A DNA stretch of 64,000 bases, taken from NCBI RefSeq assembly GCF_022846255.1, contig NZ_AP025682.1. One strand, written 5' to 3'. Below are positions 7,641 to 36,347 of the stretch, one piece after another (the stretch's first letter is position 1; every line of letters starts with the position of its first letter). The stretch is from Escherichia coli (GTDB lineage Bacteria > Pseudomonadota > Gammaproteobacteria > Enterobacterales > Enterobacteriaceae). The notes below the pieces were generated by a model. It had not been told where the DNA came from. It searched no databases and saw only the letters and a list, made by a program, of their open reading frames with translations. A program made the position numbers and the translations under genes.

Positions 7641-7711
7641 AAAGGGCTAACGTGCAGGTTTTAGCTTCAGGTAATATTGCGTACCTGCATTAGCAATGCC
7701 CTGTGATTTCT

Positions 7712-8614
7712 TTATTGATAAACAAAAGTCACGCCAATAATCGATTGCACATTCCCTGCAGTCACCTGCCCTCCGGTACGTGCGTAATTTGCCGTTAATC
7801 CCAGACTTACCGCCGAAGTCCCTACTGCTCCTAACGATACCGTGTTATTCGCTGGAATAATCGTACCGTTGCGCGTCAACTGTACGCCGACGCCCTGCGC
7901 GGGTGAAAACGACGCGGTATTGGTGAAAATCGAGTTGCCCGCATCTGCGGTTGTGCCGGATAGGTAATACCCCAGGTTTTGGCTTTTCGCACAATAAACG
8001 GTAAGAGGAATCGGCACTGAACCAGGGTAGTCCGGCAGAGTAACGGTGACATCACGAGCAGAAACATCACAGCCGCCAGTGGGCACCACCACATCATTAT
8101 TGGCGTAAATATTCCACACAAACTGGAAATCATCGCTGTTATAGTTGTTGGTCTGTCGCAAAATAAGCACGGCAATTAATGAGCCAGCTTTAATCGCCAC
8201 TCCCCCCGCACTGCTCACCGGCGTCAAATAAAGCGCCACCGGCCACGGCTTATCCGTTCTCGAATTATAAACAACCCGCGGCGTTTCGCTGGTAGTAGGG
8301 AAAGGATAGCTACTGCCATTATATTTTACGGTCCCGGAAAAACTAGATAACACACCGCCATAAGCCGAACCTCGTTGCAGTGTGACATAGTCTGTAATGG
8401 TTTCTGGGTAATCGTTATGGCAAAAGATTTGCGTCGAAAGATCTACGACCAGGTTTTGCCCCACATTCACGGCAGGCGCAAGGTTTACATAAACATTGGC
8501 GCTGCCACCGCCAATAGGGATTGCGGTACCATTGGCGGTTTTACAGGCGAATGACCAGGCATTTACCGACCAGCCCATCAGCAGTACAGCAAACAGGGTA
8601 ATAACTCGTTTCAT
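7712..8614 (-). CDS. fimH: Type 1 fimbrial mannose-binding adhesin FimH (300 aa from MKRVITL)
   Basis: Near-identical to recalled FimH (signal peptide, FACKTANGTAIPIGGGSANVYVNLAP lectin domain, C-terminal ...GVTFVYQ); last gene of the fim operon. Confidence 0.95.
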   Translation of the reverse strand: MKRVITLFAVLLMGWSVNAWSFACKTANGTAIPIGGGSANVYVNLAPAVNVGQNLVVDLSTQIFCHNDYPETITDYVTLQRGSAYGGVLSSFSGTVKYNGSSYPFPTTSETPRVVYNSRTDKPWPVALYLTPVSSAGGVAIKAGSLIAVLILRQTNNYNSDDFQFVWNIYANNDVVVPTGGCDVSARDVTVTLPDYPGSVPIPLTVYCAKSQNLGYYLSGTTADAGNSIFTNTASFSPAQGVGVQLTRNGTIIPANNTVSLGAVGTSAVSLGLTANYARTGGQVTAGNVQSIIGVTFVYQ

Positions 8615-8633
8615 TACAATCATCTCTTTGGGT

Positions 8634-9137
8634 TCAGCTGTAGGTATAGGTGATGCTAATCACTGCCTGAATGGTTCCCTGAGTGGCTCCACCATTTACG
8701 GTCAATGCTCTGACCTGTAACGGGAAGTGCGCTGATTGTGAGGAATCATCCACCTGAACTGTTTTGGTTGCGCCAGTATTCAATGTGTTGCCACTGTCAT
8801 CCTGTAGCTCTAACTGGATGTTTTGCGCGGTCCCCTGATTTTTATAATATCCGGTACTGTCGGCTGCCCCGCTGAAGCTGGCAGTGACCCTCGACGTTCC
8901 CACCGGACAATGAGTCAACTCAAGCGCAACATCATGCCAGGCCGATGCCGCCCCGGCAGACATCAGACTGAAAGAATAAAGATCGCCGAGATCTACCGTG
9001 GCATTGGTGGTGGAAACCGTACACGGTTTGGCGACGACCTTACCGTTAACCGTGATGGTGACATCGGCTGCCTGTATCGTCGCACTTGCGAGCGCCAATA
9101 TTGCCGCCAATACATACCCACGTTTGCACCATTTCAT
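8634..9137 (-). CDS. fimG: Type 1 fimbrial minor subunit FimG
   Basis: 167-aa pilin-like protein starting MKWCKRGYVLAAILALASATIQA; fim operon synteny. Confidence 0.9.
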   Translation of the reverse strand: MKWCKRGYVLAAILALASATIQAADVTITVNGKVVAKPCTVSTTNATVDLGDLYSFSLMSAGAASAWHDVALELTHCPVGTSRVTASFSGAADSTGYYKNQGTAQNIQLELQDDSGNTLNTGATKTVQVDDSSQSAHFPLQVRALTVNGGATQGTIQAVISITYTYS

Positions 9138-9149
9138 GAGCATCTCCAG

Positions 9150-9680
9150 TTACTGATATTCAAGAGTGAAGGTAGCCGTGGCATTGATATGCCCCGCAGT
9201 GACAGGCACCTGTGTCGCCATTAGCCGGGCGTAAAAATTCAACGTATTTGGTTTACCCGGCGTCAGGGTCGTCCACGAAATCGCGGACGATGGGGCATTA
9301 AGGGGTATCTCATTTTGCTGCTCATTCAGAAGCTGTATTCCCAGTCCCGCAGCCGCTGACACCGTATTTTCAAGTGCAAGCAGGTTGGCATTGTGGCTAT
9401 CTGCAACGCCAGTAAACCCAACCTTTACGGCAGAAACAGCGTTACCACAGGGTGACAGCAAAATACGAAATGGAACGACAGGAGTCGTCGCACCAATGTT
9501 GTTAAATTGCTTCGCCGCGTTTTCCATCAGATCAACAGTAAAATTGGTTGATTCAGCGGCCACACTACAGCCATTATCTCTGACATAGCCGCGGATAGTA
9601 ATCGTGCTATCCGCAGCCAAAGCGTGACTTACCGCCAGCCACAAAAAAGCGCAAAGAAGATAAAAAGGTTTGTTTCTCAT
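9150..9680 (-). CDS. fimF: Type 1 fimbrial minor subunit FimF
   Basis: 176-aa pilin-like protein starting [22 protein letters not shown]; fim operon synteny. Confidence 0.9.
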
Positions 9681-9689
9681 CACGCCCCC

Positions 9690-19840: not shown

Positions 19841-20821
19841 ATGAACGCAATAATATCGCCCGATTATTACTATGTTCTTACCGTTGCTGGTCAGTCTAAT
19901 GCCATGGCGTATGGCGAAGGACTACCATTACCGGACAAGGAAGATGCGCCTCATCCCAGAATTAAACAATTAGCGAGATTTGCGCATACACATCCCGGAG
20001 GCCCGTCATGTCACTTTAACGACATTATTCCACTGACTCACTGCCCACACGATGTTCAGGATATGCAGGGTTATCACCATCCTCTGGCAACGAATCATCA
20101 AACACAGTACGGCACCGTTGGCCAGGCACTGCATATAGCACGGAAATTACTGCCCTTTATTCCTGATAATGCAGGGGTTCTCATCGTTCCGTGTTGCCGT
20201 GGCGGATCGGCTTTTACCGCGGGCAGCGAAGGGACATATTCAGAACGGCACGGAGCCAGCCATGATGCTTGTCGTTGGGGAACGGATACTCCGCTGTACC
20301 AAGATTTAGTCAGCAGAACGCGAGTCGCACTGGCAAAAAATCCGCAGAACAAATTCCTCGGCGTATGCTGGATGCAAGGCGAATTTGACTTAATGACCAG
20401 TGACTACGCGTCACACCCTCAACACTTTAATCATATGGTTGACGCCTTTCGTAGGGATCTAAAACAATACCATTCTCAGCTTAATAAAATTACTGACGCG
20501 CCGTGGTTTTGCGGCGATACCACCTGGTACTGGAAAGAAAATTTCCCTCATGCGTATGAAGCTATTTATGGCAATTATCAAAATAATGTTTTAGCCAATA
20601 TTATTTTCGTCGACTTCCAGCAACAAGGTGCAAGAGGACTGACGAACGCGCCTGATGAAGATCCAGACGATTTAAGCACGGGATATTACGGTTCAGCGTA
20701 CCGGTCACCGGAGAACTGGACGACGGCACTGCGAAGCAGTCATTTCAGCGCGGCAGCCCGTCGGGGGATTATTTCTGACAGGTTTGTAGAAGCAATTTTG
20801 CAGTTTTGGCGCGAAAGGTGA
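19841..20821 (+). CDS. nanS: 9-O-acetyl-N-acetylneuraminate esterase NanS (326 aa from MNAIISPDYYY)
   Basis: SGNH-type esterase motif (VAGQSNAMAYG); matches recalled NanS/YjhS; third gene of nanCMS. Confidence 0.9.
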   Translation: MNAIISPDYYYVLTVAGQSNAMAYGEGLPLPDKEDAPHPRIKQLARFAHTHPGGPSCHFNDIIPLTHCPHDVQDMQGYHHPLATNHQTQYGTVGQALHIARKLLPFIPDNAGVLIVPCCRGGSAFTAGSEGTYSERHGASHDACRWGTDTPLYQDLVSRTRVALAKNPQNKFLGVCWMQGEFDLMTSDYASHPQHFNHMVDAFRRDLKQYHSQLNKITDAPWFCGDTTWYWKENFPHAYEAIYGNYQNNVLANIIFVDFQQQGARGLTNAPDEDPDDLSTGYYGSAYRSPENWTTALRSSHFSAAARRGIISDRFVEAILQFWRER

Positions 20822-20875
20822 GCGTTCATTAATTTGATTTATTCGCATCCATCAACGCTTTTAACTGCTCCGGCG
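20695..20875. repeat. Left copy of a diverged direct repeat (nanS 3' end plus downstream flank) bounding the defence island
   Basis: High similarity to 53494-53661 (shared tail ...ttcattaatttgatttatt[c/t]gcatccatcaacgcttttaactgctccggcg); the right copy lacks ~16 bp. Confidence 0.7.
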
Positions 20876-21660
20876 TGCGGCACTATAATGGTTTTCACAA
20901 CAAGGAGCCATTTTCTTATACCACTTTCAGAGACCATCCGCTTATGCCACCGCCCTCTACGCAACTGTTTGCAGAGCACCTTCCCACCGAGTGGATACAG
21001 CACCTCCTGACGCTTTCTGCTCATGCGACCATTTGTCGTCTTAACCTGAGCGCGGATGGCGAAGCGGGGATTAGCCTGCTGGCCCGCAGCGCTGTCACCC
21101 AGGAGCGCCAGCGCGTGGGGGCCCCCTGGTGGAATGGCTCTTCCGCCAGACCGCACAGACATGGGGCGCGGAACGTTACCTGAAGGATGACTGGCACGGC
21201 CTGCAACTTTTTGCCATTGATGGCGCACAGTTCAGGACACCTATGAACCTGAGTTGCGCGAATATTATGGCTCTGCCAACACATCCACTGAGCGGCAGAG
21301 CGCCTACCCGGTCATGCGTCTGGTGGCGTTAATGAATCTGGGAATCACATTCTGCTGAATGCCATGACCTCGGCCTACCGGCGGAGCGATACAGCGTGAG
21401 GCAACTAAAGCGGCGTCAGAAATCAGCTTTAAGTTCGCATTCCAGTTTATCGTGACAGAAATGATAGTGCAGGGAAATACGGCGTCACCAGGAACCATCC
21501 CGAAACGGCTGGAGCATCTGCGGGGTGCTCTGGAAGCGGTGTTCCCACGACTATCAAGGCCGAGGGCTGTTAAGGTATCAAAAACCCGTTATCCGGTGAA
21601 ACACAGTGCCGCCCCGCTTAAGTGACGGCATTGTGTTTCTGACTGGCCTTAACTTTCCCT
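20876..21660 (+). mobile_element. Degenerate IS4-family transposase remnant (frameshifted and internally deleted)
   Basis: Broken frames encode ...PPPSTQLFAEHLPTEWIQHLLTLSAHATI..., ...WLFRQTAQTWGAERYLKDDWHGLQLFAIDGAQFRTP... and ...PGTIPKRLEHLRGALEAVF..., resembling an IS4-type DDE transposase; no intact ORF. Confidence 0.45.
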
Positions 21661-21794
21661 GAATCTCTGACGATCCTCACCATTGATATTTTCTTCATTC
21701 CTCACCAGAGAAATAAAAAATCACTATACTCATCAAAATATGAGATTACATTTATTCAGGCGATCACCTTACTATTTTATACGGAAAATAAATC

Positions 21795-22445
21795 ATGAAT
21801 ATCCGTCAATCATTACATGACCGAATCTATGCAGAATACCCTCAACAGGCTAAAGATATATTACTGTATTTCCCCACTTATGAAATTATGCCATCGACCA
21901 TAAAAATGGTTATGATTAATGAGGTGGTAGCTATAACACCGCAAGAAGATTTTTATACACCAGAGTCTGGTTATTTTACGACTGTCGCCCGACAGTTAGC
22001 GCTGGCTGGATTATCGGCAAGTAGTGGCGAAGTCTTACTCAACCATGGTATCTACCTGACCTCCGCACTGAAACTACCTAAAACACAGATCACAGCCACA
22101 CCCGCGGAGATCATTCTCTGGTCACCTATTGTAGAATGGGAGCTCGAACTCTTTGCCAATATAAAAGTTATTTTCGTTGGCGGCGATATCGCGCGAAAAT
22201 GCCTTAACATCATCGCGAAAAAGCAAACACGTAAACATGCCATCCCTTCAACTCCGACGTACAAACTGATGAATAGCGAATTAGTCTGGAAAGGAATAAG
22301 CATACTTCCTGGATATATTCTTACCGGAAAAAACCTGCTCATTGAAAAGTCAAAAATCGAAATGAATGTCGAACAATTAAGAAAAGGAATTGCGATTTAT
22401 CGCAATAGTAACAGTAACCATACGAATAATTCAGTTCATGAATAA
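21795..22445 (+). CDS. Hypothetical protein (216 aa), AT-rich orphan gene
   Basis: Intact ORF with AT-rich composition unlike its neighbours; no motif I can assign confidently. Confidence 0.45.
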   Translation: MNIRQSLHDRIYAEYPQQAKDILLYFPTYEIMPSTIKMVMINEVVAITPQEDFYTPESGYFTTVARQLALAGLSASSGEVLLNHGIYLTSALKLPKTQITATPAEIILWSPIVEWELELFANIKVIFVGGDIARKCLNIIAKKQTRKHAIPSTPTYKLMNSELVWKGISILPGYILTGKNLLIEKSKIEMNVEQLRKGIAIYRNSNSNHTNNSVHE

Positions 22446-22916
22446 GAGATGAATCATTAATAACAAGAAATCACTGACAAACCACCTGTAAAAGGTCAAT
22501 CATTTTAGTTCAATTTCCTTTGTCATGATTATATTTTTATCGTCCTGACGATACTATTAACAATTACAATATTTATACCCTCCCCTGAACAAACAGAAAA
22601 GAACTCATACATTCGTTTATAATTCTGGTAATCCTGGCATCATACGTTTAAAATTTAAGGTGTTTGTTTTATAATCATGATTCCAAAGACTATTGGTCAC
22701 CAGAAAATGCCAGCCTTTTCGTGCCAGCTATATTTGTCCAGTGTGTTACCCCATCCAAAAATCATCCACATCCTGATGTTACGTTAGATATAGAGAAAAC
22801 AGGTTGTACTGTGCAATATGCTAACCGCATAAGCGAATATAATTTCTAAGCTGATATTGTCTGGCTGTTGGGAGCTAAACAATATAAATATCGCCAGTTG
22901 CCAGAACGGTTATATA

Positions 22917-22942
22917 GACCAGGAGCGTTTCGGCTCCTGGTC
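22917..22942. terminator. Hairpin in the convergent intergenic region between the orphan ORF and the UvrD-like gene
   Basis: gaccaggagc-gtttcg-gctcctggtc 10-bp perfect stem; could terminate either convergent transcript. Confidence 0.35.
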
Positions 22943-22958
22943 TGTTTCGGACATATTA

Positions 22959-25073
22959 TCAATCAGCCACTAATAGCGGACTAGGGATACCAGATGATGA
23001 AACAAACAGCCCTTTTACGGCACGGGTTGCAGCCACATGCAGTAACGCGCGCTCATTAAATAATGCATCACGCTGTTCAACGGGATCATCGGATGCTAAT
23101 GCTTTTATTTCCGGCACAACGCCTTCGTTAATCCCCACCAGGAACACATACTGGAACTCAAGCCCTTTAATACGGTGCATCGTTGCAACTCGCACGCCTG
23201 GGCGTTCATCGCTGTCACCGCTATCATTGCCTAAATTAAATGTCTCAATTCCGGCGTCATTGAGTGCTGATGCGTAGCGGTCGCAAGCATGTTTAGTACG
23301 CGCAGTAATGCAGATATCCTGAGAACGAACCTGACTCGCCAGCAATGCCTGAATTTGCTTGACGAGTGTTGCAGCCTCTTCTTTGAAATCTGCCGCATGC
23401 GTAATCATGGGCTTTTCCCCGTGCAGTAATGACAAATAATCATTACTGGTATCCGCTTCGCCATCGAGGTTATCAACCTTCACACCAGTTAACAGCCCAA
23501 CAGCAAATTGACGCGTCTCTTCTGTGGTCCGATAGTTAATCTTCAATTTTTTACTGCGACGACCACGGACGTTAATACCACACTGACCAAGAACGACCTT
23601 ATTGCGATAAATACGCTGATGCCCATCCCCGACAATAAACAGATCGTTGGGCGACTCGGGAACCAGGCTGCGAATAAGAGTAAATGCCGGGGCACCGATA
23701 TCTTGAGCTTCATCGACGACAATACTGCTATAAGGTAGTTGGACCTGCTTTTCTTTAAACAGAACAATAGCCTCATGCATGGCATCGCCCATTTCGCGCA
23801 GTTTGGCACGCGCCATTTGTGCTCTGAATTCTTCGAAAACTGGCCAGATTTTCGCCCGTTGAATACGGGATAACGCTGTACCACGTCCAACCCGGCTGAC
23901 TTTGAGGTATTCCTCCCGGGTGTAAACCGCATTTGGCTGGACAACGCGTTGCCACTCTTCAGCATAGAAATTGTCAGGTAGCCCCAGTTCGGCAGGTGCC
24001 TGCTGCAAGGCATAGTTCCAGCATTTACGTCGCCCTTCATCGCTGTCGTATACCACGCGGAAATCATAACCGTGGCGTTTTAGTTGGTCGCTCATCCAGG
24101 CATCAATGTTAACGACGTCAATACGCGCCATCTCTTCTCGCGTACACAACCGCTGGAGATTAGCGCGAATATCTGCCGCCAGGTTACGCGTAAAGGTCGT
24201 GAAAAGTACCTTCTTACCGGGTTTATCTGCCAGACGCTGAGATAACCACCGCGCACGGTGCATTGCAACAACCGTTTTCCCTGTACCTGCACCGCCCAGT
24301 ACTCGTACCGGACCATTAGCGGGCGACTCCACCAGTTTTCGCTGGCTCGGATGCAGAAATACACGCCATTTTTCTAAAGGCGCATTAAGCATCTGCAACA
24401 GCTCCTGTTCATTTTCAACGACATGGAAGCGACGTTTACTTCGTTCAATCGCCTCCATAAAGTCGTTGGTATCAACAGGCTCGTCACGATGATCGTTAAA
24501 CTCTTCCAGCACTTCCTGGTAATCCAGCCCTTCTGCCAGCCAATGCAGGGGTTCCCAGGCTTCTGCTGGCATTATGCTTTCAAGTTGATTAAGCCCGGCT
24601 TCATCGGTAAGCGCCATCACCTGATCAATAAAGACAGGCGGCACACCCAGGGCCAGAATCTGTTCCGCGCTGTAAGCTGCGAAGAGTTTCGGTTTATCTA
24701 GCACCGTTTCCGCCGCCGGTTTGATATAGCTAATATCAATAACCTGAATTGCGCCGGTAACCGGGTGAATTGAACAATCATGCCGCCGCGCCCAGTCGTA
24801 TGCTTCGTCGTGTTTATCCACCCACATCAGCATATACAGGGCACCCTGTTCAGGTTTCAGAACAATGCCGCGATAAGTTTGATCGATTCGCACCGAATGG
24901 ACATTTTTACTGCGCGCATCGTGGATCTTTTCATAGTTAAGTCCATTACTGGTCGGGTCCTGACGGAATTTGGAGATGAATTCCTGCACCTTTTTTTGCT
25001 GTGCTTTTGGGATCCGCGCGAATGCGCCCAGAAAACCATCAGAAAGTGCCACCTTGGGCGTTTGCACCGTCAT
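22959..25073 (-). CDS. UvrD/Rep-like superfamily 1 helicase with a ~200-aa N-terminal domain of unknown function (704 aa)
   Basis: Walker A GGAGTGKT, motif II VVDEAQD, C-terminal UvrD-like motif (MHRIKGLEFQYVFLVG); start overlaps the upstream gene's stop (ATGA). Confidence 0.8.
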   Translation of the reverse strand: MTVQTPKVALSDGFLGAFARIPKAQQKKVQEFISKFRQDPTSNGLNYEKIHDARSKNVHSVRIDQTYRGIVLKPEQGALYMLMWVDKHDEAYDWARRHDCSIHPVTGAIQVIDISYIKPAAETVLDKPKLFAAYSAEQILALGVPPVFIDQVMALTDEAGLNQLESIMPAEAWEPLHWLAEGLDYQEVLEEFNDHRDEPVDTNDFMEAIERSKRRFHVVENEQELLQMLNAPLEKWRVFLHPSQRKLVESPANGPVRVLGGAGTGKTVVAMHRARWLSQRLADKPGKKVLFTTFTRNLAADIRANLQRLCTREEMARIDVVNIDAWMSDQLKRHGYDFRVVYDSDEGRRKCWNYALQQAPAELGLPDNFYAEEWQRVVQPNAVYTREEYLKVSRVGRGTALSRIQRAKIWPVFEEFRAQMARAKLREMGDAMHEAIVLFKEKQVQLPYSSIVVDEAQDIGAPAFTLIRSLVPESPNDLFIVGDGHQRIYRNKVVLGQCGINVRGRRSKKLKINYRTTEETRQFAVGLLTGVKVDNLDGEADTSNDYLSLLHGEKPMITHAADFKEEAATLVKQIQALLASQVRSQDICITARTKHACDRYASALNDAGIETFNLGNDSGDSDERPGVRVATMHRIKGLEFQYVFLVGINEGVVPEIKALASDDPVEQRDALFNERALLHVAATRAVKGLFVSSSGIPSPLLVAD

Positions 25074-28000
25074 TTGTCACCTCCGGACAGATGTTGCAAT
25101 GTATTTTCGTCAATTGGCCCGAATGCTACGTGCCAACCCCTGGTTGTGAATAATGGAATAAATTCTTGATTATCAATAATCAATGCCCATTTTTGTGATG
25201 GCCAGGCGAGATCGGCTTCCGCAATAATTTCCCCCTCATCATTTTGCAATTCGTAGCCGAGAGTCGGCGCAGAGAGAGAATGAGACTGAAGCAACGCGAT
25301 CTCTTCAGCGCTTAATAAGCCAAACTCAATAATCTCAGCCCAACTCTCATCAGTCTCTGGTACTGCCTCTGGCGTTGCCGAAACTTTAGTGTCAACGCTT
25401 TCCTGCGGTAAATGCACGGCTTTACGGCTGGTAAAGGTTATATCCGGCAGGAACTGTAACAGGTTTACCAGTCGCCAGAAGCCATTGAGTCCCGCTTCAT
25501 AACCGTCATCCTGCGTATAGCGATCGTCAAAACAGATATGCAAACGCAGCCAGCTGCGCATTTGTGCGACACTGGTCGTCGGTTTAATGGCTTGTTGTGG
25601 CAACACCGAAGCCAGCTCAATAAATTGCTGCGATGAGTTACAGCTATCGAGTAAACCACCAAAGACAAACGGTTCGTCTGGCAAAAGCTCTGCTAGCCGC
25701 CAGGCTGGCGCGTTTTCCTGCATTTCATAGGCATACTTTTGTTTCGTTCCCGCGTCCTGTGACTTCTTCACATCCAACCACACCCAGGCATGTGCAGCAG
25801 CCATTTTCTGCCATAACTGCGTTCTTCCTCCCGGATCGGCGAGATAATCCAGCAGCAGTGCAAAACTGTTGCGTTCCCGGAACGACGCTTCAAGGGCCGC
25901 AAAGTTGGTATCGTGAAACAGGTTATAAAACTTAGGCTGTTTCATATCCGGGTTATGCCCAAGCCCCAGGACATCCTGAACATGTTTAAGCCCAGGCTCT
26001 TTGAGATCGGCCCACGTGACTGTCCACACCCAGAAATTATCGCTATCCCGAATCGCCTGGCGTTTTTGCACATCCTCTGCGACGCTATTTTTGTGAAACG
26101 CAAAGCCATCAAGGAAAATAGCTACCGGTTTAATGGCATCAGACTGCATAAGCGGATATAGCACGTAATCCGGGCGACAAGGGATCCCCACCGCCTCTTT
26201 AGCGCCTAAATCCACCTGAGCTTTAAGATGCCAGCTCATCATCGGTTCGCTGCGGGTGTTAATAATCCACCCAGCGCCCTGATGCGCGTAACTGCGACTG
26301 ACAATCAGGTTTTTATTTTCTTGCAGGCAGCTAATAAACCGTTTTTCCAGCTCACTGCCCATCATGGCTTCGAGGGAAATGTTTTTGATGGAATCAATTA
26401 CCCGTATCGAATCTCTTGCCTGCAAAATTTTCGCCAGCAAGAGACGCGCCTGATCGCGGGAGACATACTTCATGCGCCCACGGTCACGGTAAGCGTAAAC
26501 GCAACGATAACAACCATCTTTATGCGTATCATGGTTGCAACTGCATTCCACTATCGCCTGATAGGCCAGTTCAAGTAATTTCAGCAAATTGTCGGGAGTG
26601 CGCATCAGCTCTTTAAGAGAACCAGTTCCCCCCGGGACGGTATCGTAAATCACCAGATACTGCCGCCAGGATTCGCCTTCATTTTCCGGCTCGCGGTACA
26701 CAACGCCTTTCAGGTGATCGACATTCCCCTTGAAGTAATGTTTAAGACCTAGCTGGATCGCCGCCCCAAGAGAAGCCTCCACGACACGGTCATTACTGTA
26801 ACTGCTTACCGGGAGCAGAATACGCAACGCTTCTGACTCCAGCTGGCGATAGAGATAGAGATAATCTTCGAACTTCGCCTTTTCGGGTTCCGTGCGATAT
26901 TTGCAGCTCAAATCATGACGGGGTTCATGATCGCGAGGACGCTGTACCATGCCGCACCCGAGGCAAACTTTAAACCCGGTTCGCTTCTTCGCTTCTCCGG
27001 CAATCATCAACTCATTGGCATCATCCGCCATTTTGCCGAAGTTGATATCCCGCAGGGTGACTTTGCTTAAAAATTCAAAACCAAACGGAACTTCGCCTTC
27101 CTCAATCGCGTATGCCGCCGATACATCTTCTTTTTCGAAACTAACCAATAGCTGACGCTGGAAGAAAGCAGGTTCACGGCTGTCGCTCTCGTCGCTGATC
27201 TGGCTATCACGTGCGCTGGCGCGGGCATACACCTGGCGAAGTTTCAGCAGCGTGGTTTTTTGTCCGGCGTCGGCCCACCCCGGTGTGCCACATTTCGGGC
27301 AATATTTATGCTGGTCGCCCGTCTGGTCGATATTTTCGCTGTAGTTACAGTGGCTACAGATACGCCAGTTCTCCGGCTCAGAGACCTTCAGGTCTATCTG
27401 CTCAATTTCAACTTTATGCCCACCGGCATAGAAATTATTCAGCGGAGCCAGCTCAGCCAGCGCCGTTGATGCCGGGCGTTCATATTCGAAAGTGGTGTTT
27501 TGATATTCACGTGCTTCCCCGCCTTCTTTACGCCGCCAGAGCACAGAACGTAACGTAATACCGGCTTCCGGGAAGGCGTAGTTAGGCAGCAGACCTTCAT
27601 CCGTGAGGAAATTCAGCGTCTGCTTATTGTTGATTTGATTGACCAGCGCCATCAGCGCCTGCCGTTCTGAAGTTAACTCGCGCATATCGCTGTCAAAGTT
27701 TTGATCGCGCGGCGCGTTCTCCAGCTTATCGATACTGCGCTTGAGTTTATCGATGCGTGAACGCAGAGATTTGCGATCTTCCACCAGCAGTTTTAACGCC
27801 TCTTCGATACGCTGCACCAGAGAGCGTTGTCCTGGCGCGCCCTGAAGATAAGACAACAACTGTTGGCGAGTTTCTGCGGCAAGATCGGGGAAGATCGCCG
27901 TAAATTGTGCAGCAATCTCCGCATGATGCTGTTCGATATATCTCAGTAAGTTATACGGAAAACCCGATTTACGCCCGAACTCCAGCTCATCCAGCATCTG

Positions 28001-31000
28001 TTTGACGTTTTTACAGATAGCGGATTCTGGTACACCGGTTTTCACCCAGTTATCCATACAAAAAGCTGCCAGCTGGCGTTCGAGAATAGCCGTTGCATTG
28101 AGGAAGACGCCAGGAGCCTGCACCTGGCCCTGCATCATCTCCAGTGGTTCTTCAAAGAAAAACTGATCGTGCGGGTTCCCTTCTGCCACGGTAATGTTTA
28201 ACGCGTTACCATCTTTACGACCGGCGCGACCAATACGCTGCAAGTAGTTGGCCTGAGCAGGTGGGACAGAACAGAGTAAAACGGTGGAAAGATCCCCAAC
28301 GTCGATACCCATCTCCAGCGTCGGTGTTGCCGACAACAGGTTGATATTCCACGGTTGGTTGCCGCGGTAGAACGATTTTTCGGTGGCTTCGCGATCTTCA
28401 CGGCTAAGCAGCCCCGTGTGTTCTGCGCCCTGCACGCGCGCGATGTCCATGTTCTCCCAACGCCAGGTCGCCGTATTGTCGACTTCCTGGTAACGACCTT
28501 CACAACGTAAAGAGAGACAAGGCGCATTACGCCACTGCCACCCTTGATCGGCCGGAGCCCGGACAACCTCACGGCAACATGAGCAATTAAGCTGAACGAC
28601 GTCACGGCTCACCACCAGCGCCGAAGGCACCAGTCCCCAGGCTTCACGCCCTTTGGTGTCAAAATCTTTTACTACTCCGGCTATTTTCAACGCCGTAAAC
28701 AGGCGTCGTAACACCGTTTCCGCAACGCTACTGATAAACAGATTATTGCCGTTACTCAGCGTGCGATTGATCCAATGCTGATACCAACTGGGGTTAGACT
28801 TCGCGCCAATCAGGCGATGGAAACCATTAATTTTTTCAAACGACGCGTAAGCCGGTTTACGCGTTTTCGGACCGATAGAAGGCATATAGCGCGAGGTACG
28901 CTCTTTTTGCGTCATCATAAAGGTCGTGCCATCACGGCGATAACTTTCGAACGCCGGATGCATAACGGCCCCGGCCTGGCGTTGATACCAGATAACCCCC
29001 AGCGCCAGGTGCGCTACCTGCTCGACGCTCACACCGGACATCTCATCACCCAGCTCTTCACAAAGCTGTTGATGCAGGGCGGTAATTGCCGGATTAAAGC
29101 GATCTTTATCCACTCCAGCAACGGCATAACCGGTGGCTTCCAGCGTACGTCCGATACGCGCGCGCAGGGTGAATTCGCTGTACACCTCCCAGTCGAGGCG
29201 CAGGGAAACCAGCTCCGGCAGATCGGAGTTCTCCGCCAGTTTGCCTTCATTTTTCAGTGTCTGATAATCATTCAGCCACTGCATATTTGGTGCGATGAAG
29301 TTCGCTGCAAAATGAGCATCGTCCGGTGAACGTTCACGCGTTTGTTGGCAAACACGCGCCGCGAACGCATCCAGCGGTAATGTCTCTTTTTCGCCAAGAA
29401 CACTGGCGATTTGCCCACGAATCATCAGCGGCCAGGTTCGGGCAGTAAAAAAGCTGGCACGATGCGCGGCGTCTTGTACCGAGTCAGAAAACGTAATCAG
29501 CTTTTTATGTTCGTTGAACTGGCTGCCATAAAGCTGGTGAATCATCACCGCCGACAGACTGGCAGCCCGTGACCCCAGAATCGAAATCCCCTGTTTGCTG
29601 TTGCAGTACGGGCATTCATTAGCAAACTCCAGCTCGTCCTTACGCTCTTTGAGCATATCTGGGATCAGTACCTGCAACAGCTCTGTATGACCACAATGTC
29701 CACACTGGACGCTGGACTGTCGGTTCAGTTTCAGGCAGGTAGGGCACAGTTTCTGGTGTGCGCCACTGACCGCTTTTTCGTTGTTATCCGGGAAAGCAAG
29801 GACGATGGAGCGCCCTTTTTCAAAGAACTGGCGATAAATGCCGTCGAGGTCTGTTTCCAGCTGAACGCTTTGCCCATGACGCAGGCTGGCCCAGCCGGTT
29901 GCGTGGCAGTCACGGCAGTGGATAACCGGCAAATAGTGTTCGCGATCTTCCACCGCCACATCATCGGCAAACACCAGTCTCGGTGTTTTCGCCACGCTGG
30001 CGACCAGACGACGCATCTCACGAAGCCACAACTGGGAGCGCAGTTGCACAAACGGCAGCACCGGGCGCGCTTTCTTCGCCTGGAGACGTTTTTGCCGATC
30101 GTGGTCCGTTTCCGGTACTTCGAGACGTGCCTGCGCGATCAGCGCCAGAATGCTTTGCAGCACGCGTCGGGCATGGTCGGCGCTTTCTGCCAGCATGACC
30201 TGGAGATTTTCCAGACACTCTCGTTCAGAGAGGATCCCGCCTTGCAGATCATGGAGTAAGACATGCATCACGCTGTGGCGGCGTAACAGTGACCCCAGCG
30301 CAATACGCTTTTCACGCCCGTCGTCGCTCTCCAGATCGTCCGGGAGTTGCAAGTCGCTGTCGGGGAACCACAAAGGGATTTGTCCGTTGAGATACGCCAC
30401 CGGGGTAGCGTAACTCTGCGGGTCCAGGGCCGAAGCGACCTCCGGCCCCGGATACTGACTGTACGCAATGGCGTAATCCTGCAAGTACTCCGCTGCCGTG
30501 TAGCGATCTTCGCGAATAACGGCGTCATCGGTAAACGGCTGGTCAAAGATTGTTTTTGCGTAATCGAGCAGTTGCCCCAGTTCGTCGCCGACGGTCGCTG
30601 ATGTCCCGACGCAGGCGAATCGTTGGTTATCTACACCTATGTGATGCTTCAGACGTCGCACCAGACAGGCCAGATCCGACCCTTGCGCGCCATCAAACGT
30701 ATGCAATTCATCCACGACCAGGTAACGCAATGAACCGGGCTGGTTGTAACGCCAGAGCGGCTGATCGCCAGGGCGCATCAGCAGGTAGTCGAGCATTTTG
30801 TAGTTGGTCAACAGGATGTCCGGCGGGCTTTCGCGCAGCGTGTGCTTACAGGTAATGACCTTTTCTGCCGACATTTTTTTGCTGGGTTCGATTTCGCTGT
30901 CGCCGACAAACAGGCCGACGGTCACCTTGCCATGCAGTTGTGGATCGCTGGCGATGGTTTTGGCGAAACGGCTGGCCTGATCGGTTGCCAGGGCGTTCAT

Positions 31001-31411
31001 CGGGTAGATGATAATCGCTTTAACCCCGGCTTGTGACGCGCCCGCGCAGTGGTTGAGCAGCGGGAACATAAAACATTCTGTTTTACCGGAGCCGGTACCG
31101 GTAGCGACCAGTGTCGGCTGTGGCGCGTCGCTTCCCAGACGCTGAAATGCCCGGGCCTGATGCGCGTGCGGCGGGAACGGCAGCGTCAGATTAGGGAAGA
31201 AATTCAGCGGTAAGTCACTTTTACAAAACGGCAACTGGGCGGAAAGGTATGGTCCTTTCAGCAGCGTTTCAGGCTGGGCCAGAAATTGCTCCAGCATTGA
31301 GACATTATCGTTATTCTCGCCGTTAAACAGCGGGCTGTTTAGCGGGAACGCCGCCCGTAAAAAGGCGGCAACGCTGTCGGCGACCTGCCGACTGACAACG
31401 GATGGCAGCAT
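25070..31411 (-). CDS. Giant DEAD/DEAH-box helicase with Zn-ribbons and a DUF1998-like module (DruE-like / fused DrmA-DrmB-like), 2113 aa, with a C-terminal Vsr/DUF559-like nuclease-fold motif
   Basis: Motif I ATGTGSGKTECFMFP, motif II VVDELH, motif VI QRIGRAGR; several CxxC clusters (CSHCNYS...CPKCG, CLGCG, CSCNH...CYRC); DUF1998-like VIYDTVPGGTGS; C-terminal DYVLYP...IFLDGFAFH; 1-nt overlap with the upstream methyltransferase gene (TGATG). Confidence 0.75.
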   Translation of the reverse strand: MLPSVVSRQVADSVAAFLRAAFPLNSPLFNGENNDNVSMLEQFLAQPETLLKGPYLSAQLPFCKSDLPLNFFPNLTLPFPPHAHQARAFQRLGSDAPQPTLVATGTGSGKTECFMFPLLNHCAGASQAGVKAIIIYPMNALATDQASRFAKTIASDPQLHGKVTVGLFVGDSEIEPSKKMSAEKVITCKHTLRESPPDILLTNYKMLDYLLMRPGDQPLWRYNQPGSLRYLVVDELHTFDGAQGSDLACLVRRLKHHIGVDNQRFACVGTSATVGDELGQLLDYAKTIFDQPFTDDAVIREDRYTAAEYLQDYAIAYSQYPGPEVASALDPQSYATPVAYLNGQIPLWFPDSDLQLPDDLESDDGREKRIALGSLLRRHSVMHVLLHDLQGGILSERECLENLQVMLAESADHARRVLQSILALIAQARLEVPETDHDRQKRLQAKKARPVLPFVQLRSQLWLREMRRLVASVAKTPRLVFADDVAVEDREHYLPVIHCRDCHATGWASLRHGQSVQLETDLDGIYRQFFEKGRSIVLAFPDNNEKAVSGAHQKLCPTCLKLNRQSSVQCGHCGHTELLQVLIPDMLKERKDELEFANECPYCNSKQGISILGSRAASLSAVMIHQLYGSQFNEHKKLITFSDSVQDAAHRASFFTARTWPLMIRGQIASVLGEKETLPLDAFAARVCQQTRERSPDDAHFAANFIAPNMQWLNDYQTLKNEGKLAENSDLPELVSLRLDWEVYSEFTLRARIGRTLEATGYAVAGVDKDRFNPAITALHQQLCEELGDEMSGVSVEQVAHLALGVIWYQRQAGAVMHPAFESYRRDGTTFMMTQKERTSRYMPSIGPKTRKPAYASFEKINGFHRLIGAKSNPSWYQHWINRTLSNGNNLFISSVAETVLRRLFTALKIAGVVKDFDTKGREAWGLVPSALVVSRDVVQLNCSCCREVVRAPADQGWQWRNAPCLSLRCEGRYQEVDNTATWRWENMDIARVQGAEHTGLLSREDREATEKSFYRGNQPWNINLLSATPTLEMGIDVGDLSTVLLCSVPPAQANYLQRIGRAGRKDGNALNITVAEGNPHDQFFFEEPLEMMQGQVQAPGVFLNATAILERQLAAFCMDNWVKTGVPESAICKNVKQMLDELEFGRKSGFPYNLLRYIEQHHAEIAAQFTAIFPDLAAETRQQLLSYLQGAPGQRSLVQRIEEALKLLVEDRKSLRSRIDKLKRSIDKLENAPRDQNFDSDMRELTSERQALMALVNQINNKQTLNFLTDEGLLPNYAFPEAGITLRSVLWRRKEGGEAREYQNTTFEYERPASTALAELAPLNNFYAGGHKVEIEQIDLKVSEPENWRICSHCNYSENIDQTGDQHKYCPKCGTPGWADAGQKTTLLKLRQVYARASARDSQISDESDSREPAFFQRQLLVSFEKEDVSAAYAIEEGEVPFGFEFLSKVTLRDINFGKMADDANELMIAGEAKKRTGFKVCLGCGMVQRPRDHEPRHDLSCKYRTEPEKAKFEDYLYLYRQLESEALRILLPVSSYSNDRVVEASLGAAIQLGLKHYFKGNVDHLKGVVYREPENEGESWRQYLVIYDTVPGGTGSLKELMRTPDNLLKLLELAYQAIVECSCNHDTHKDGCYRCVYAYRDRGRMKYVSRDQARLLLAKILQARDSIRVIDSIKNISLEAMMGSELEKRFISCLQENKNLIVSRSYAHQGAGWIINTRSEPMMSWHLKAQVDLGAKEAVGIPCRPDYVLYPLMQSDAIKPVAIFLDGFAFHKNSVAEDVQKRQAIRDSDNFWVWTVTWADLKEPGLKHVQDVLGLGHNPDMKQPKFYNLFHDTNFAALEASFRERNSFALLLDYLADPGGRTQLWQKMAAAHAWVWLDVKKSQDAGTKQKYAYEMQENAPAWRLAELLPDEPFVFGGLLDSCNSSQQFIELASVLPQQAIKPTTSVAQMRSWLRLHICFDDRYTQDDGYEAGLNGFWRLVNLLQFLPDITFTSRKAVHLPQESVDTKVSATPEAVPETDESWAEIIEFGLLSAEEIALLQSHSLSAPTLGYELQNDEGEIIAEADLAWPSQKWALIIDNQEFIPLFTTRGWHVAFGPIDENTLQHLSGGDK

Positions 31412-34400
31412 CAGGCGCTCTCCTTATCTTGTGCAAAGAACGCCCAGGCCACTTTGTAGTCGTCCTCGCGATCTGGCTTGATAAACGGAGCCTGCCAAGT
31501 GACGGTACGGCGCTCGCCTTCGTCGCTGCGGGTATAGTCATCAAAGGTGACGCTGACGGTACCGGTTTGCAGATGTTTGACATCATCCCAACCGATGGCT
31601 TGATCGGTGCAGTCACCGCCGGTCCACTCTGGGCTATCGACGTTAAAGACAAAGCCGTTTTTCAGGTCAGCTTTACGCGCGGTGCGAGGCAAGCCAACGC
31701 CCACCAGCCCTTTGCTTGGGGTAAAGATAATGCGACCGTTTTGATCGTACCAGGTATCCGCTTCGTACTGGCGCATCACCGGGAACTGTACACGGTAAAT
31801 GGTAAGCAGTTCTTCGAGGGTTAACCCCAGCGCCTGCGCCACCAGTACGTCGATTTCCACCAGCGCCTGACGGCGACTGTAGTCAGAGCGTAAGGCGCAG
31901 TTACGCTGCCACTCTGGGGTCAGATTGGTGAAGAAATCTTGTGGGAGCTGCGGGAGATCGCGGCTCCAGCGTTGGGTATTGAAGTCTGGGGTGTAGCAGG
32001 ATTGCCAAAGGCCAGCATATACATCATTTACAGAATTTAATGATAATACTAAGCAGTATAATAATGCCTTTTGTCTCGGATTGAATAATACGTATGAGAA
32101 ACAATCAAGCATCTGATGTAAGTTTGCCTTGCCAGTAGATTTACAAATAAAATCAAAAGGTAAAGAAAAACACATACCTGAATGTTCAAGTAACAGATTC
32201 TGTGAGCTATAGCAGTAAGAACGTACTGCGTTCATGTGACTTATTTCTGGCGGATAAATAGCACTAATTAGTGTACGTTCCCCCGATTGAGCCAACATGG
32301 CTCTGATAGCTAAGCGATAATAATCTGTTACCTTCTTCGGTTCATCTTCAGCCAGTTCAGTCCATGTAACGCATGGAGTACGTTTGGCATACTCCTGTGC
32401 ATCACATGCCGGAATATAGTTAGTGCGCGGCAGATAGTCATCAGGCAGAGTTAGCAAGTCGAGGTTATCGTATGCTTTATTCGTGTCGCAGATCTCTTTG
32501 GGTGTGTTATAGAAAGGATTGCCGACAAAGAAATGTGGACCAGATACAACCCATTGTGAAGGATTTTTTGGAAACTGTGTTTTTCGCAAAATTGTGCCGT
32601 CATTTTGTGCATTAACTTCATTCCAATGCTGGGTTGCATAATAGCTGTTTGTAAAATCATTTAATCTCTTAGGTTGACGAGCAAACTTCTCAAGCACCGC
32701 TACCAATTGTTTAGAATGTAATGCAGGAAGACGAGCTTGTAGGGCCGGCGTGTCGTCAGAATCATAGAGACGAGCAAATAGTCCTAATTTTATAAAATCA
32801 ATAGTCACAATTCGATCTAAATGTCCCTGAAAATTCCATTTAGCTTTGGCCTTTCCATCAATCTCAGCTTCTTCTTTAATGCCTGGAACGTTACCATCAC
32901 CTTTATGTTCGAAACATGCATCAATTGTTTGAGGAATAAACAAATTTACTATGTTCGAAAATACTGGCATTTGAGAAAATGGACCATAGATATTGATGCT
33001 GAATCTAGTGTGATTATCCACCTCAGCAAATAGTTTTATTTCATTCGCAAACTGAAAATGAGCCCTCAACCTCGGATAAACTGATGCACGCATCTGCCCA
33101 CCAGTAGGATCATCATAAATCCCTTCCGGGTGCAGGAGTCCTGTCACACCTCTTTCCGCCCCCAAACGCCACGCCTGCGGCAGGAAGCATTTATACAAAT
33201 TCGCTTTTTGACCTGCTAGTACCGGGTAGTTCTGCTGCGCATTGAGGAAGTTTTGCATCCCTTCACAGCCTTCATACTCGCTGCGCCAGGCCGCTTCCAG
33301 CGCCGGGATCTGGTTAAAGGTATCAATACGCAACGTGGCCAGCTTCGATGCACTCAGCTTACGCAGCACAAATTCCGGCTCGTAATCACCCAGCACGCCC
33401 GCTTCCTGCCATTCCACTTTCAGCCACGGCGGGTTTCCGAGCATCAGGTCAAAACCGCCGCGCTCGGCAAACAAGTCGCAGAACTCCAGATCCCAGTGGA
33501 AGAAACGGTACTGCTTTCTCAGGGCATCGACAATCGCCAGACGCGGCAAATGACGGAACAACACCTCGGTTTTCAGACGACCTGCGCCGGAAAACAGTGA
33601 AGACTCTTCTCGCAGCAGACCTTCTTCGGCAAACAGATCGCCGGTGGTGTGCTCCGCAACTTCAGTGACTTTTTCCGTGATTACAATCCCGTCGAGCAGG
33701 GTTTCAATCTCAAACAACCAGGTGCCGCGATCCGGTAGCTCATCGGCTTTGTCGATCGGCCAGAACCACAGCGCGCACCAGTAGTCCATTACCCAACGCA
33801 GCTTCTGGTAGGCACTGTTATCTTCAAGACGACCACTGAAGGTTTCATCTTTACTGCTCAGCGAAGAACGCGTCTGCTCGCTGTTTTCTGCCGGCCACAC
33901 CGGGTAGCTGTCGGCGGTTTTCAGACGTTCTGCTTTAAGTTGCTGGCGATAGGTGTTCCACAGAGCTTCCACCTTTTCGCTGATACGCTGCACATCAGCA
34001 ATCTCATGCCCGGCAAAGCTTTTAATAAACTCTTTGCGCCAGCTGTCCAGGGCTTTGAAGTCATCCGGATAACGCTGCTTAACAGTTTTATCGCTGTAGT
34101 TAGCCATACCGCCGTCGGGCAGCAGGAAGTGAAAAATCTGCGTCTCTTCACGCGGCGTGTTCATCGCCAGTTCAACCGGCTCGCTGTTAAGCCAGCTCGG
34201 ATCTTTGGCTTTTTTGTAGGTCAGTTCACTCTTGTTAAATACCTGACGGCGCGCGCCCACCAGCGAGTTACCGCAGTGCAGCTGGTAACCAAACCACGGT
34301 ACAAACGCATCGCCACTAATGGCGTTCAGCCACAGTGACACTTCCGCCAGTTCCACCGCCACCGGGTTTAAGTCCACGCCGAAAACGTTGTTGTCGGCAA

Positions 34401-36345: not shown

Positions 36346-36347
36346 GA

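What the first reader, a model, noticed from the sequence alone, without database searches (positions are those of the whole stretch)
21795..22445. AT-rich orphan ORF between the IS4 remnant and the defence operon
A clean 216-aa ORF whose composition is much more AT-rich than the flanking operon, convergent with the UvrD-like gene and beside a transposase remnant. It may be an independently acquired single-gene module or an accessory component.
Basis: seen in the sequence. Interest (0 to 1): 0.4.

Follow-up and report, generated by a model that had tools for sequence, protein, structure and literature searches.

The report
Stand-alone divergent DNA glycosylase gene
The ORF is a real, horizontally acquired gene for a divergent member of the uracil-DNA-glycosylase enzyme superfamily, sitting at the edge of a large E. 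coli phage-defence island but not part of the neighbouring helicase operon; its substrate and role are untested, and newer genome annotations already name it at superfamily level.

Summary
Window 21795-22445 (+) is an intact 216-aa ORF with 40% GC, against 50-53% in the adjacent operon. It is convergent with a UvrD-like gene and lies next to an IS4-type transposase remnant.

It belongs to a small, uncharacterised UDG branch: 442 clusters among 1.84 billion representatives, almost all from gut Firmicutes and Bacteroidales. Compared with family 4 it keeps the motif-A glutamate (E43). It lacks the motif-B histidine (I175), the uracil-reading Asn (S90) and the Fe-S cysteines.

It is not an operon component:
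- The helicase operon occurs in about 530 E. coli genomes, but the intact ORF in only 92.
- O157:H7 lacks exactly the ORF, between 10-nt direct repeats.
- Other genera carry the operon without it.
- Its relatives never sit beside such an operon.

Most likely it is an independently acquired, stand-alone base-excision enzyme that does not target plain uracil. Whether it repairs damage or attacks modified phage DNA (like Brig1-3) is unresolved. Interest is modest.

The parts
21795..22445 (+). 216-aa ORF for a divergent UDG-superfamily protein (PGAP: uracil-DNA glycosylase family protein, WP_001026378.1). Key residues: motif A I41-N42-E43-V44-V45; F53/Y54; S90; I99; G130-D131; P172-x-Y174-I175-x-T177-G178-x-N180-L-L-I-E-K185.
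21791..21800 (.). Left copy of an imperfect 10-nt direct repeat, AATCATGAAT. It contains the start codon.
   Evidence: Read from the sequence. The O157:H7 site keeps a single copy, and the 661 nt between the copies are absent there.
22452..22461 (.). Right copy of the direct repeat, AATCATTAAT, starting 7 nt after the stop codon.
21640..21794 (+). AT-rich (33.5% GC) upstream region between the transposase remnant and the ORF. No consensus sigma-70 promoter was found, and the Shine-Dalgarno sequence is weak.
   Evidence: The region is kept (about 93% identity) in the O157 'empty' allele.
22446..22958 (.). AT-rich (36% GC) non-coding spacer between the ORF and the stop codon of the UvrD-like gene. 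It travels with the operon's 3' end within E. coli but is not conserved in other genera. It holds a 61-aa ORF (22664-22849) with no family hit, and a terminator-like hairpin on the - strand (22728-22709).
20944..21625 (+). Context only: frameshifted IS4-type transposase remnant immediately upstream.
   Evidence: PGAP feature in L001 mapped by offset; faint Nterm_IS4 hit.
22959..25073 (-). Context only, not part of the module: UvrD-like helicase, last gene of the four-gene helicase/methyltransferase operon (22959-39206).

Best explanation
The ORF is an independently acquired, stand-alone gene for a divergent enzyme of the uracil-DNA-glycosylase (UDG) superfamily. It belongs to a small branch that split from the Fe-S-containing family 4/5 lineage, and within that branch to a clade that has lost the cluster cysteines. 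It rides at the outer edge of a defence island larger than 40 kb. It is not a subunit of the neighbouring helicase/methyltransferase operon.

Inferred mechanism:
1. The protein binds DNA and flips a base into a pocket. The pocket is built by motif A (I41-N-E43-V-V), the stacking aromatics F53/Y54, S90, I99, and the strand and loop P172-Y174-I175...N180-L-L.
2. It hydrolyses the N-glycosidic bond with help from E43, leaving an abasic site for host AP endonucleases.

Three residues that read or activate uracil in family 4 are replaced by smaller or apolar residues: N80 by S90, N89 by I99 and H155 by I175. The target is therefore probably not plain uracil. It is more likely a damaged or modified base that is bulkier or a better leaving group.

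Shown here: the fold, the motif mapping, the foreign origin and the independence from the operon.
Inferred: catalysis, the substrate class and the role. The role could be damage repair or attack on modified foreign DNA.
For: **Fold**
- AF2 model: pLDDT 89.7, pTM 0.88.
- Foldseek: 34 PDB hits at E <= 1e-3 (34 of the 50 best-scoring hits, all 50 of which are UDG-family entries).
- The relatives pass Pfam UDG.

**Family conservation**
- 35 columns are invariant across 30 sequences, including INEVV, G-D-x-A-x-K and P-x-Y-I-x-T-G-x-N-L-L-I-E-K.

**Link to families 4/5**
- Distant members carry four Cys and 'LEAPP' where family 4 has GEAPG.
- P0132 aligns to 2d3y at E = 1.3e-6. The residue mapping from that alignment reproduces the published numbering N80, N89 and N120 (PMC5387724).

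**Foreign origin**
- GC is 40% against 50-53% in the operon; the relatives' median is 38.9%.
- Relatives were found in 263 species, and the best 80 are all Firmicutes or Bacteroidales.

**Independence from the operon**
-.

**DNA-related role of the family**
- A wHTH-WYL-WCX regulator sits immediately upstream in 20 of 79 loci, with gaps of -35 to +25 nt, in most loci -4 to +4 nt.
- This regulator class senses ssDNA (PMC11662680, PMC11804915, PMC10853764).

**Maintenance**
- The exact protein and a D21E allele are each seen on at least 1000 contigs.
Against: - No activity data exist for any member of this branch.
- The E. coli protein is the outlier of its family. It deviates at 16 of 65 columns that are at least 90% conserved in relatives (others deviate at 0-5). 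The changes include Y99I, which aligns with the water-positioning Asn of families 4/5, and two conserved arginines, R159M and R169S.
- The histidine whose loss costs family 4 more than 1000-fold in rate is absent.
- The gene has been inactivated independently several times: a precise deletion, an IS1 truncation and two different frameshifts.
- No promoter was recognised upstream.
Confidence: 0.55

Rival explanations
1. Brig-like antiphage effector. This is a specialisation of the best explanation, not exclusive of it. The glycosylase would have been captured by the defence island and would excise a modified base from phage DNA, such as the hmC-type or other hypermodified bases of coliphages. 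The resulting abasic sites would block phage replication.
For: - The ORF lies at the edge of an island that also holds a DISARM/Druantia-like helicase-methylase operon, Druantia III, Zorya II, an HNH gene, PDC-S11 and Wadjet III.
- UDG-fold enzymes Brig1, Brig2 and Brig3 are proven antiphage glycosylases. They are found in AT-rich, MGE-linked or defence loci (PMC11078745).
- In Brig1 the best structural match was also a family 4 UDG.
- Pocket positions are changed to smaller residues.
- E. coli already has Ung and Mug for uracil repair (background knowledge).
Against: - There is no PADLOC hit.
- No PDB sequence or fold hit other than classical UDG families ranks high.
- Neighbourhoods of 79 relatives show no recurrent defence protein.
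- The position at the extreme island edge, beside an IS remnant, also fits unrelated cargo.
- The gene is lost from most operon-carrying E. coli.
Confidence: 0.25
2. Inactive or decaying passenger. The gene would be left-over cargo of an earlier mobile element, still open only because it arrived recently, with no function in E. coli.
For: - It deviates at 16 of 65 conserved family positions, including pocket and arginine positions.
- There are at least four independent inactivations in a clade whose copies are at least 99.5% identical.
- No recognisable promoter was found.
- It is flanked by an IS remnant.
- Within-species variation is too low to show purifying selection.
Against: - All 35 family-invariant residues are retained although overall identity is only about 40%.
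- The model is confident and compact.
- Intact alleles dominate, each seen on at least 1000 contigs.
Confidence: 0.25
3. Accessory component of the adjacent helicase/methyltransferase operon, for example processing DNA for the helicases or protecting self DNA.
For: - Physical adjacency is seen in two different chromosomal settings: the nanS site and a tRNA-Phe island in ATCC 8739.
- The count of E. coli genomes with the ORF or its remnant (92 + 40) equals the count with the >=99% allele of the UvrD-like gene (132).
Against: - The ORF is convergent with the operon and separated from it by a 513-nt spacer.
- About 400 E. coli genomes and a plasmid carry the operon without it.
- Other genera keep the DEAD/MZB + UvrD pair with unrelated downstream genes, and homology stops at window 22969-22980.
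- No relative sits beside operon homologues.
Confidence: 0.05
4. Ordinary back-up uracil-DNA glycosylase for repair of deaminated cytosine.
For: - UDG fold and the PGAP name.
- The motif-A Glu and the stacking Phe are retained.
- Relatives are coupled to ssDNA-sensing WYL regulators.
Against: - The equivalents of N80, N89 and H155 are S, I and I. In family 4, changing these residues lowers activity 7- to >1000-fold.
- Distribution is patchy and accessory: 263 of about 100,000 species.
- E. coli already has Ung and Mug (background knowledge).
Confidence: 0.1

Closest known systems
Family 4 (UDGa) and family 5 (UDGb) uracil-DNA glycosylases, and UdgX (PDB 1l9g, 1ui0, 2d3y, 6ail)
   Same: - Motif A follows strand 1, and its Glu is equivalent to Tth UDGa E41.
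- An aromatic residue is equivalent to F54.
- The 'G-[IV]-Y-[IL]-T-x-A-[VL]-K' strand matches.
- Distant members of the branch keep four Cys like the Fe-S ligands.
   Different: - Sequence identity is only 14-19%.
- Motif A is INEVV, not GE(A/G)PG or GLAPA.
- The motif-B His is replaced by Ile.
- The N80 equivalent is Ser.
- The N89/N120 equivalent is Tyr in the family and Ile in E. coli.
- The E. coli clade has one Cys in total, so no Fe-S cluster.
- The Pfam UDG score is below the gathering threshold.
Brig1, Brig2 and Brig3 antiphage DNA glycosylases (PMC11078745; bioRxiv 10.1101/2025.10.29.685425; 10.64898/2026.02.25.707755)
   Same: - Divergent single-gene UDG-superfamily proteins.
- AT-rich, horizontally moved, near defence genes or MGEs.
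- Non-canonical pocket.
- The expected product is an abasic site.
   Different: - No detectable sequence relationship was found here.
- No phage phenotype is known.
- Relatives of this ORF are mostly in regulator, efflux and detox-type neighbourhoods, not defence islands.
- Brig2 homologues are mainly Pseudomonadota, whereas this family is Firmicutes and Bacteroidales.
- The Brig2 sequence could not be retrieved for a direct test.
MUG/TDG (family 2 UDGs)
   Same: - They also lack the motif-B histidine and act on bases other than plain uracil, relying on good leaving groups (background knowledge).
   Different: - Different motif A (GINPG).
- Sequence identity is about 9-11%.
- There is no indication that this ORF recognises mismatches.

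Membership tests
UDG superfamily | Characteristic alpha/beta/alpha fold with a central parallel sheet | tested here: met
   [not shown]
UDG superfamily | Match to the Pfam PF03167 profile above the gathering score | tested here: not met
   The E. coli protein scores 18.1 bits against a cut-off of 24.3 (E = 0.003). Most relatives do carry PF03167.
UDG superfamily | N-glycosylase activity on DNA | not testable with these tools
   No biochemical data exist for any member of this branch. No solved structure is closer than 20% identity.
Family 4 UDG (UDGa) | Motif A GE(A/G)PG | tested here: not met
   The ORF has I41-N-E43-V-V-A. Only the Glu is kept. Bridging members show 'LEAPP'. Motif definition from PMC5387724 and PMC4787834.
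Family 4 UDG (UDGa) | Motif B histidine (Tth UDGa H155) stabilising the leaving base | tested here: not met
   1ui0 '...KVFPMF' followed by H155 aligns to P0132 '...RVFPSY' followed by L, which corresponds to E. coli Y174-I175.
Family 4 UDG (UDGa) | Asn reading uracil N3/O4 (N80) and water-positioning Asn (N89) | tested here: not met
   N80 corresponds to S90 (Asn in most relatives). N89 corresponds to I99 (Tyr in relatives).
Families 4, 5 and UdgX | Four Cys (or three Cys plus His) ligating a 4Fe-4S cluster | tested here: not met
   The E. coli protein has a single Cys (C136) and lacks the N-terminal Cys pair. Distant members of the branch keep C-x3-C, 'AVKC' and 'xCS'.
Brig-type antiphage glycosylases | Located among defence genes | tested here: met
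   For the E. coli copy, the island 22959 to beyond 63909 holds DruH/DruE, ZorA/B/E, JetA/C/D, PDC-S11, HNH and the helicase-MTase operon. For its relatives elsewhere this is not met.
Brig-type antiphage glycosylases | Sequence or close structural kinship to Brig1, Brig2 or Brig3 | tested here: inconclusive
   No such entry appears among the PDB sequence hits at E <= 10 or the top fold hits. I could not confirm that Brig entries are in those libraries, and the Brig2 sequence was not retrievable.
Brig-type antiphage glycosylases | Protection against phages with modified bases; excision of the modified base | not testable with these tools
   Needs plaque assays and glycosylase assays.
Adjacent helicase/methyltransferase operon (DISARM/Druantia-like) | Co-occurrence and co-orientation with the operon across genomes | tested here: not met
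   The ORF is convergent with the operon. The operon occurs in 532 E. coli genomes, the intact ORF in 92. The ORF is absent in O157:H7, on a plasmid, and in Cronobacter/Kosakonia, Shewanella and Photobacterium. No operon homologues occur in 91 loci of relatives.

The most novel reading that the evidence does not exclude
The ORF is the E. coli representative of a previously undescribed UDG-superfamily family. The clade that includes the E. coli gene lacks the Fe-S cysteines; the whole family lacks the motif-B His and has a Glu-containing motif A. In gut anaerobes this family would form a WYL-regulated, ssDNA-inducible base-excision module. After capture by an E. coli defence island, with its pocket remodelled (N to S, Y to I), it would act as a stand-alone antiphage glycosylase with a new specificity for a modified base. 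Natural null alleles (the O157:H7 deletion, the IS1 truncation) would be available for comparison.
Probability: 0.2. Interest if true: 0.55.

Novelty: new member of a known kind. Interest (0 to 1): 0.3.

Why it matters
If the protein is active on a modified or damaged base, it would add a fourth, sequence-unrelated lineage to the recently discovered antiphage or specialised UDG-fold glycosylases. This one is native to E. coli, where phage panels and natural knock-out alleles make the test easy.

The conserved WYL-regulator / UDG-like / MFS-transporter cluster in gut Firmicutes would point to an inducible base-excision response in the gut microbiome. Enzymes with new base specificities are also useful reagents for mapping DNA modifications.

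If it is inactive or merely a redundant uracil glycosylase, the finding is ordinary. It would then be an AT-rich passenger gene at an island edge that current annotation already names correctly at superfamily level.

Tried and rejected
- **NCBIfam and PADLOC on the ORF:** no hit.
- **PDB sequence search:** with the single sequence, only 2d3y at E = 0.18. With the family profile this improved to E = 0.0012.
- **Rfam on 20800-23100:** only a sub-threshold, implausible snoRNA match, so there is no RNA element.
- **Promoter scan:** nothing convincing upstream of the ORF.
- **Donor neighbours:** blastx of 21500-23000 against 516 neighbour proteins of relatives found no remnant of a WYL, MFS or DUF6194 gene (best E = 2).
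- **dN/dS:** not possible. The only 'divergent' relatives, P0002 and P0003, are frameshifted copies at the same locus. E. coli alleles differ by single residues. The next relatives are at most 48% identical, so synonymous sites are saturated.
- **Phage genomes:** tblastn found no match. Plasmid matches were only Enterococcus megaplasmids.
- **Wide alignment A3:** too diverse for the locus scan, so A1 was used.
- **AFDB fold library:** unavailable.
- **Brig2 sequence or accession:** not retrievable from the truncated supplement. The accession WP_001026378 appears in no held paper.
- **Literature:** searches for a described UDG family with these motifs or with WYL linkage found none.
- **Non-DNA (nucleoside) substrate:** considered because one Clostridia relative follows a pyrimidine-nucleoside phosphorylase gene. 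That adjacency is not recurrent, so the idea was not pursued.

Full report
**1. Observation**

Window 21795-22445 (+) is an ATG-started ORF of 216 codons (sequence).
- Its GC content is 40.1% (GC3 38.7%). The four genes of the adjacent operon are 50-53% GC. The immediate flanks are 33-36% GC.
- It converges on a 704-aa UvrD-like gene at 22959-25073 (-).
- It follows a frameshifted transposase that PGAP annotates in an identical copy of the locus. That transposase gives a faint IS4 N-terminal hit.
- The window is E. coli chromosome: fim, then nanC-nanM-nanS, then the island.

The description is correct. The label 'orphan' is not.

**2. What the protein is**

*Family searches*
- Pfam gives only a sub-threshold UDG hit: 18.1 bits against a cut-off of 24.3.
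- NCBIfam and PADLOC give nothing.
- Recent PGAP runs nevertheless name it 'uracil-DNA glycosylase family protein' (WP_001026378.1).

*Homologues*
- A search of 5.8 billion proteins finds one tight E. coli/Shigella cluster. The next relatives are at 36-48% identity and 184-206 aa long. They come from Muribaculaceae, Duncaniella, Clostridia and similar organisms, and most carry PF03167.
- The 30-sequence alignment has 35 invariant columns, including I41-N-E-V-V, F53, G85-x-Y87, K93-x-P-K96, E114/E116, G130-D-x-A-x-K135, N138 and P172-x-Y-I-x-T-G-x-N-L-L-I-E-K185.

*Structure*
- With this alignment AlphaFold2 gives pLDDT 89.7 and pTM 0.88.
- The 50 best-scoring Foldseek PDB hits shown are all UDG-family entries; the best is 2d3y at E = 4.5e-6.

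*Size of the branch*
- An exhaustive profile search of 1.84 billion cluster representatives finds only 442 at E <= 1e-3, many of them fragments.
- This is a small, separate branch, not one of the large classical families.

**3. Active-site anatomy**

More distant members of the branch carry four cysteines (an N-terminal C-x3-C, 'AVKC' and 'xCS'). They have 'LEAPP' where family 4 has GEAPG.

One of these members, P0132, aligns to the family 5 structure 2d3y at E = 1.3e-6, and more weakly to family 4 structure 1ui0. Counting along those alignments reproduces the published residue numbers N80, N89 and N120 (PMC5387724).

Carried through alignment A3, the mapping is:

| Tth UDGa residue | E. coli ORF | Note |
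|---|---|---|
| E41 | E43 | kept |
| F54 | F53/Y54 | kept |
| N80 (reads uracil N3/O4) | S90 | Asn in most relatives |
| N89 (= N120 of UDGb, positions water) | I99 | Tyr in relatives |
| H155 (stabilises leaving group) | I175 | H155S costs more than 1000-fold in rate |

- The E. coli clade has a single cysteine. It therefore lacks the Fe-S cluster that typifies families 4, 5 and UdgX.
- The protein fails the defining motifs of families 4 and 5 while clearly having the superfamily fold.
- Plain uracil is an unlikely preferred substrate. This last step is inference.

**4. Relation to the neighbouring operon**

*The island*
- The neighbouring genes are an SNF2/DrmD-like helicase (36348-39206), a 1644-aa type IIG-like methyltransferase (31411-36345), a 2113-aa DEAD/MZB helicase (25070-31411) and the UvrD-like helicase.
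- Further along come Druantia III, Zorya II, an HNH gene, PDC-S11 and Wadjet III.

*Distribution in 5,426 complete E. coli genomes*
- The UvrD-like gene is present in 532 genomes: 132 at >=99% identity and 393 at 95-99%.
- The full ORF is present in 92, and a 165-nt 3' remnant in 40 more.
- The equality 92 + 40 = 132 suggests that the ORF tracks one allele of the island. I did not verify this genome by genome.

*The precise indel*
- In O157:H7 EC4115 the same nanS / IS-remnant site lacks window 21801-22461 (equivalently 21791-22451: one 10-nt repeat copy plus the 651 nt between the two copies).
- The ORF is bracketed by an imperfect 10-nt direct repeat: AATCATGAAT at 21791-21800 and AATCATTAAT at 22452-22461. 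The 'empty' site keeps one copy.
- Both AT-rich flanks persist there at 93-95% identity. Deletion between the repeats is therefore more likely than insertion (inference).

*Other states of the locus*
- In ATCC 8739 the operon lies in a tRNA-Phe island and IS1 has cut the ORF.
- A plasmid copy has IS elements directly after the UvrD-like gene.
- Two different frameshifted copies exist.

*Outside E. coli*
- The DEAD/MZB + UvrD-like pair is conserved in Cronobacter/Kosakonia (93%), Shewanella (84%) and Photobacterium (63%).
- The downstream genes there are unrelated, and none is UDG-like.
- Nucleotide homology to the window ends at 22969-22980.

The ORF is physically linked to one E. coli allele of the island. 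It is not a conserved component of the operon.

**5. The family elsewhere**

- A scan of one genome per species (about 100,000 species) finds relatives in 263. The best 80 are all Firmicutes (Lachnospiraceae, Enterococcus, Oscillospiraceae, Clostridium, Paenibacillaceae) or Bacteroidales, with at most 48% identity.
- There are no phage hits. Plasmid hits are only Enterococcus megaplasmids.

*Gene neighbourhoods* (crude gene calling and clustering of 516 neighbours)
- A WYL+WCX regulator lies immediately upstream in 20 of 79 loci, with gaps of -35 to +25 nt, in most loci -4 to +4 nt.
- An MFS transporter lies immediately downstream in 15 loci.
- In Bacteroidales, a DUF6194 protein lies 2-7 nt downstream in 10 loci.
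- None of the loci contains relatives of the window's operon, DruE or DruH.
- A scan of 149 neighbour-cluster representatives finds no recurrent core defence protein in PADLOC.
- The same scan against Pfam gives a regulator, efflux and detox flavour: MerR, TetR, GNAT, glyoxalase/bleomycin-resistance, MatE.

*What the WYL link means*
- wHTH-WYL-WCX regulators sense ssDNA. They control both DNA-damage regulons (PafBC, DriD) and defence systems (CapW, BrxR).
- The coupling therefore argues for a DNA-acting enzyme, but it does not separate repair from defence.

**6. State of the E. coli copy**

- It is the outlier of its family, at 38-42% identity to all others, which share 46-98% with each other.
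- It deviates at 16 of the 65 columns that are at least 90% conserved in the others, where they deviate at 0-5. It still keeps every invariant residue.
- Its GC matches the relatives' median of 38.9%, which fits an unameliorated import from an unsampled low-GC lineage.
- The exact protein and a D21E allele are each seen on at least 1000 contigs. Other variants are singletons or truncations.
- Selection within E. coli cannot be measured.
- No promoter was recognised upstream.

**7. Interpretation**

The best-supported reading (confidence about 0.55) is an independently acquired, stand-alone UDG-superfamily base-excision enzyme that is not specific for uracil.

Its role in E. coli is open:
- *Brig-like antiphage function, about 0.25.* The island context and the three precedents Brig1-3 favour it. 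The non-defence context of its relatives and the lack of any kinship to Brig proteins count against it.
- *Inactive passenger, about 0.25.*
- *Ordinary uracil repair, about 0.1.*
- *Accessory subunit of the operon, about 0.05.*

**8. Novelty and score**

- At superfamily level the gene is already correctly named by current annotation.
- At family level it belongs to an uncharacterised branch with an unusual motif combination.
- I file it as a new member of a known kind, with interest 0.3.
- The most novel reading not excluded is a new WYL-linked UDG family recruited as an E. coli antiphage glycosylase. I give it about 0.2 probability and 0.55 interest if true.

Noticed in passing
window 22959-39206 (-): A four-gene operon with overlapping stops and starts: SNF2/DrmD-like (952 aa), type IIG-like methyltransferase (1644 aa; DrmMI/REase_MTase_IIG hits), DEAD + MZB helicase (2113 aa; partial DruE/DrmA hits) and a UvrD-like helicase (704 aa; GajB-like hits). 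It resembles DISARM and Druantia but matches neither fully. The DEAD/MZB + UvrD pair recurs across Gammaproteobacteria with different partners, including Zorya-like genes in Photobacterium (L104).
   Followed up: partly
window 39430-63909: The rest of the island is dense with defence systems: Druantia III (DruH 45744-49103, DruE 39430-45753), Zorya II (ZorA 49258-50967, ZorB 50974-51681, ZorE 51685-52788), an HNH protein (54334-55263), PDC-S11 (55374-56372), and Wadjet III (JetD 56499-57554, JetC 57567-62003, an unassigned 298-aa gene at 62006-62902 that is probably JetB, and JetA 62905-63909).
   Followed up: partly
window 21791-21800 and 22452-22461; L014 about 8489-8502: The ORF is bracketed by an imperfect 10-nt direct repeat. 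The O157:H7 allele lacks exactly the 661 nt between the copies, leaving an 11-codon mini-ORF that starts at the same ATG. This is a clean natural knock-out shared by about 390 complete genomes.
   Followed up: yes
L026, L029-L031, L037, L049, L052, L058, L064, L089, L095, L096 (around 7000 in each locus): A conserved three-gene cluster in Lachnospiraceae and other Firmicutes: WYL+WCX regulator, UDG-like gene and MFS transporter, with the first two genes overlapping or 3-4 nt apart. To my knowledge it is not described in the literature searched.
   Followed up: partly
L023, L032-L034, L038, L048, L050, L070, L074, L077: In Bacteroidales the UDG-like gene is followed 2-7 nt later by a DUF6194 protein (about 149 aa). 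This is a second conserved pairing, of unknown meaning.
   Followed up: no
window 22664-22849 (+): A 61-aa ORF in the AT-rich spacer with a good sigma-70-like promoter just upstream (22647-22675; 10 of 12 matches). Older annotations call it a hypothetical protein and newer PGAP drops it. It has no Pfam hit.
   Followed up: partly
window 22959-25073 (-), N-terminal about 230 aa of the UvrD-like protein: The region before the helicase core has no Pfam domain. JGI annotations of homologues call it RelE-like ('mRNA-degrading endonuclease RelE').
   Followed up: no
L013 (E. coli ATCC 8739), locus 3570-10793: The same helicase operon sits in a tRNA-Phe integrase island. An IS1 element has cut the UDG-like ORF down to its last 165 nt. 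So the island, or its right-hand part, has moved or recombined between two chromosomal sites.
   Followed up: partly
L007/L008 (Clostridia MAGs), 3887-5825: One relative lies 14 nt downstream of a pyrimidine-nucleoside phosphorylase gene and near a thymidylate-kinase fusion. This hints at nucleoside metabolism, but the adjacency is not recurrent in the other loci.
   Followed up: partly
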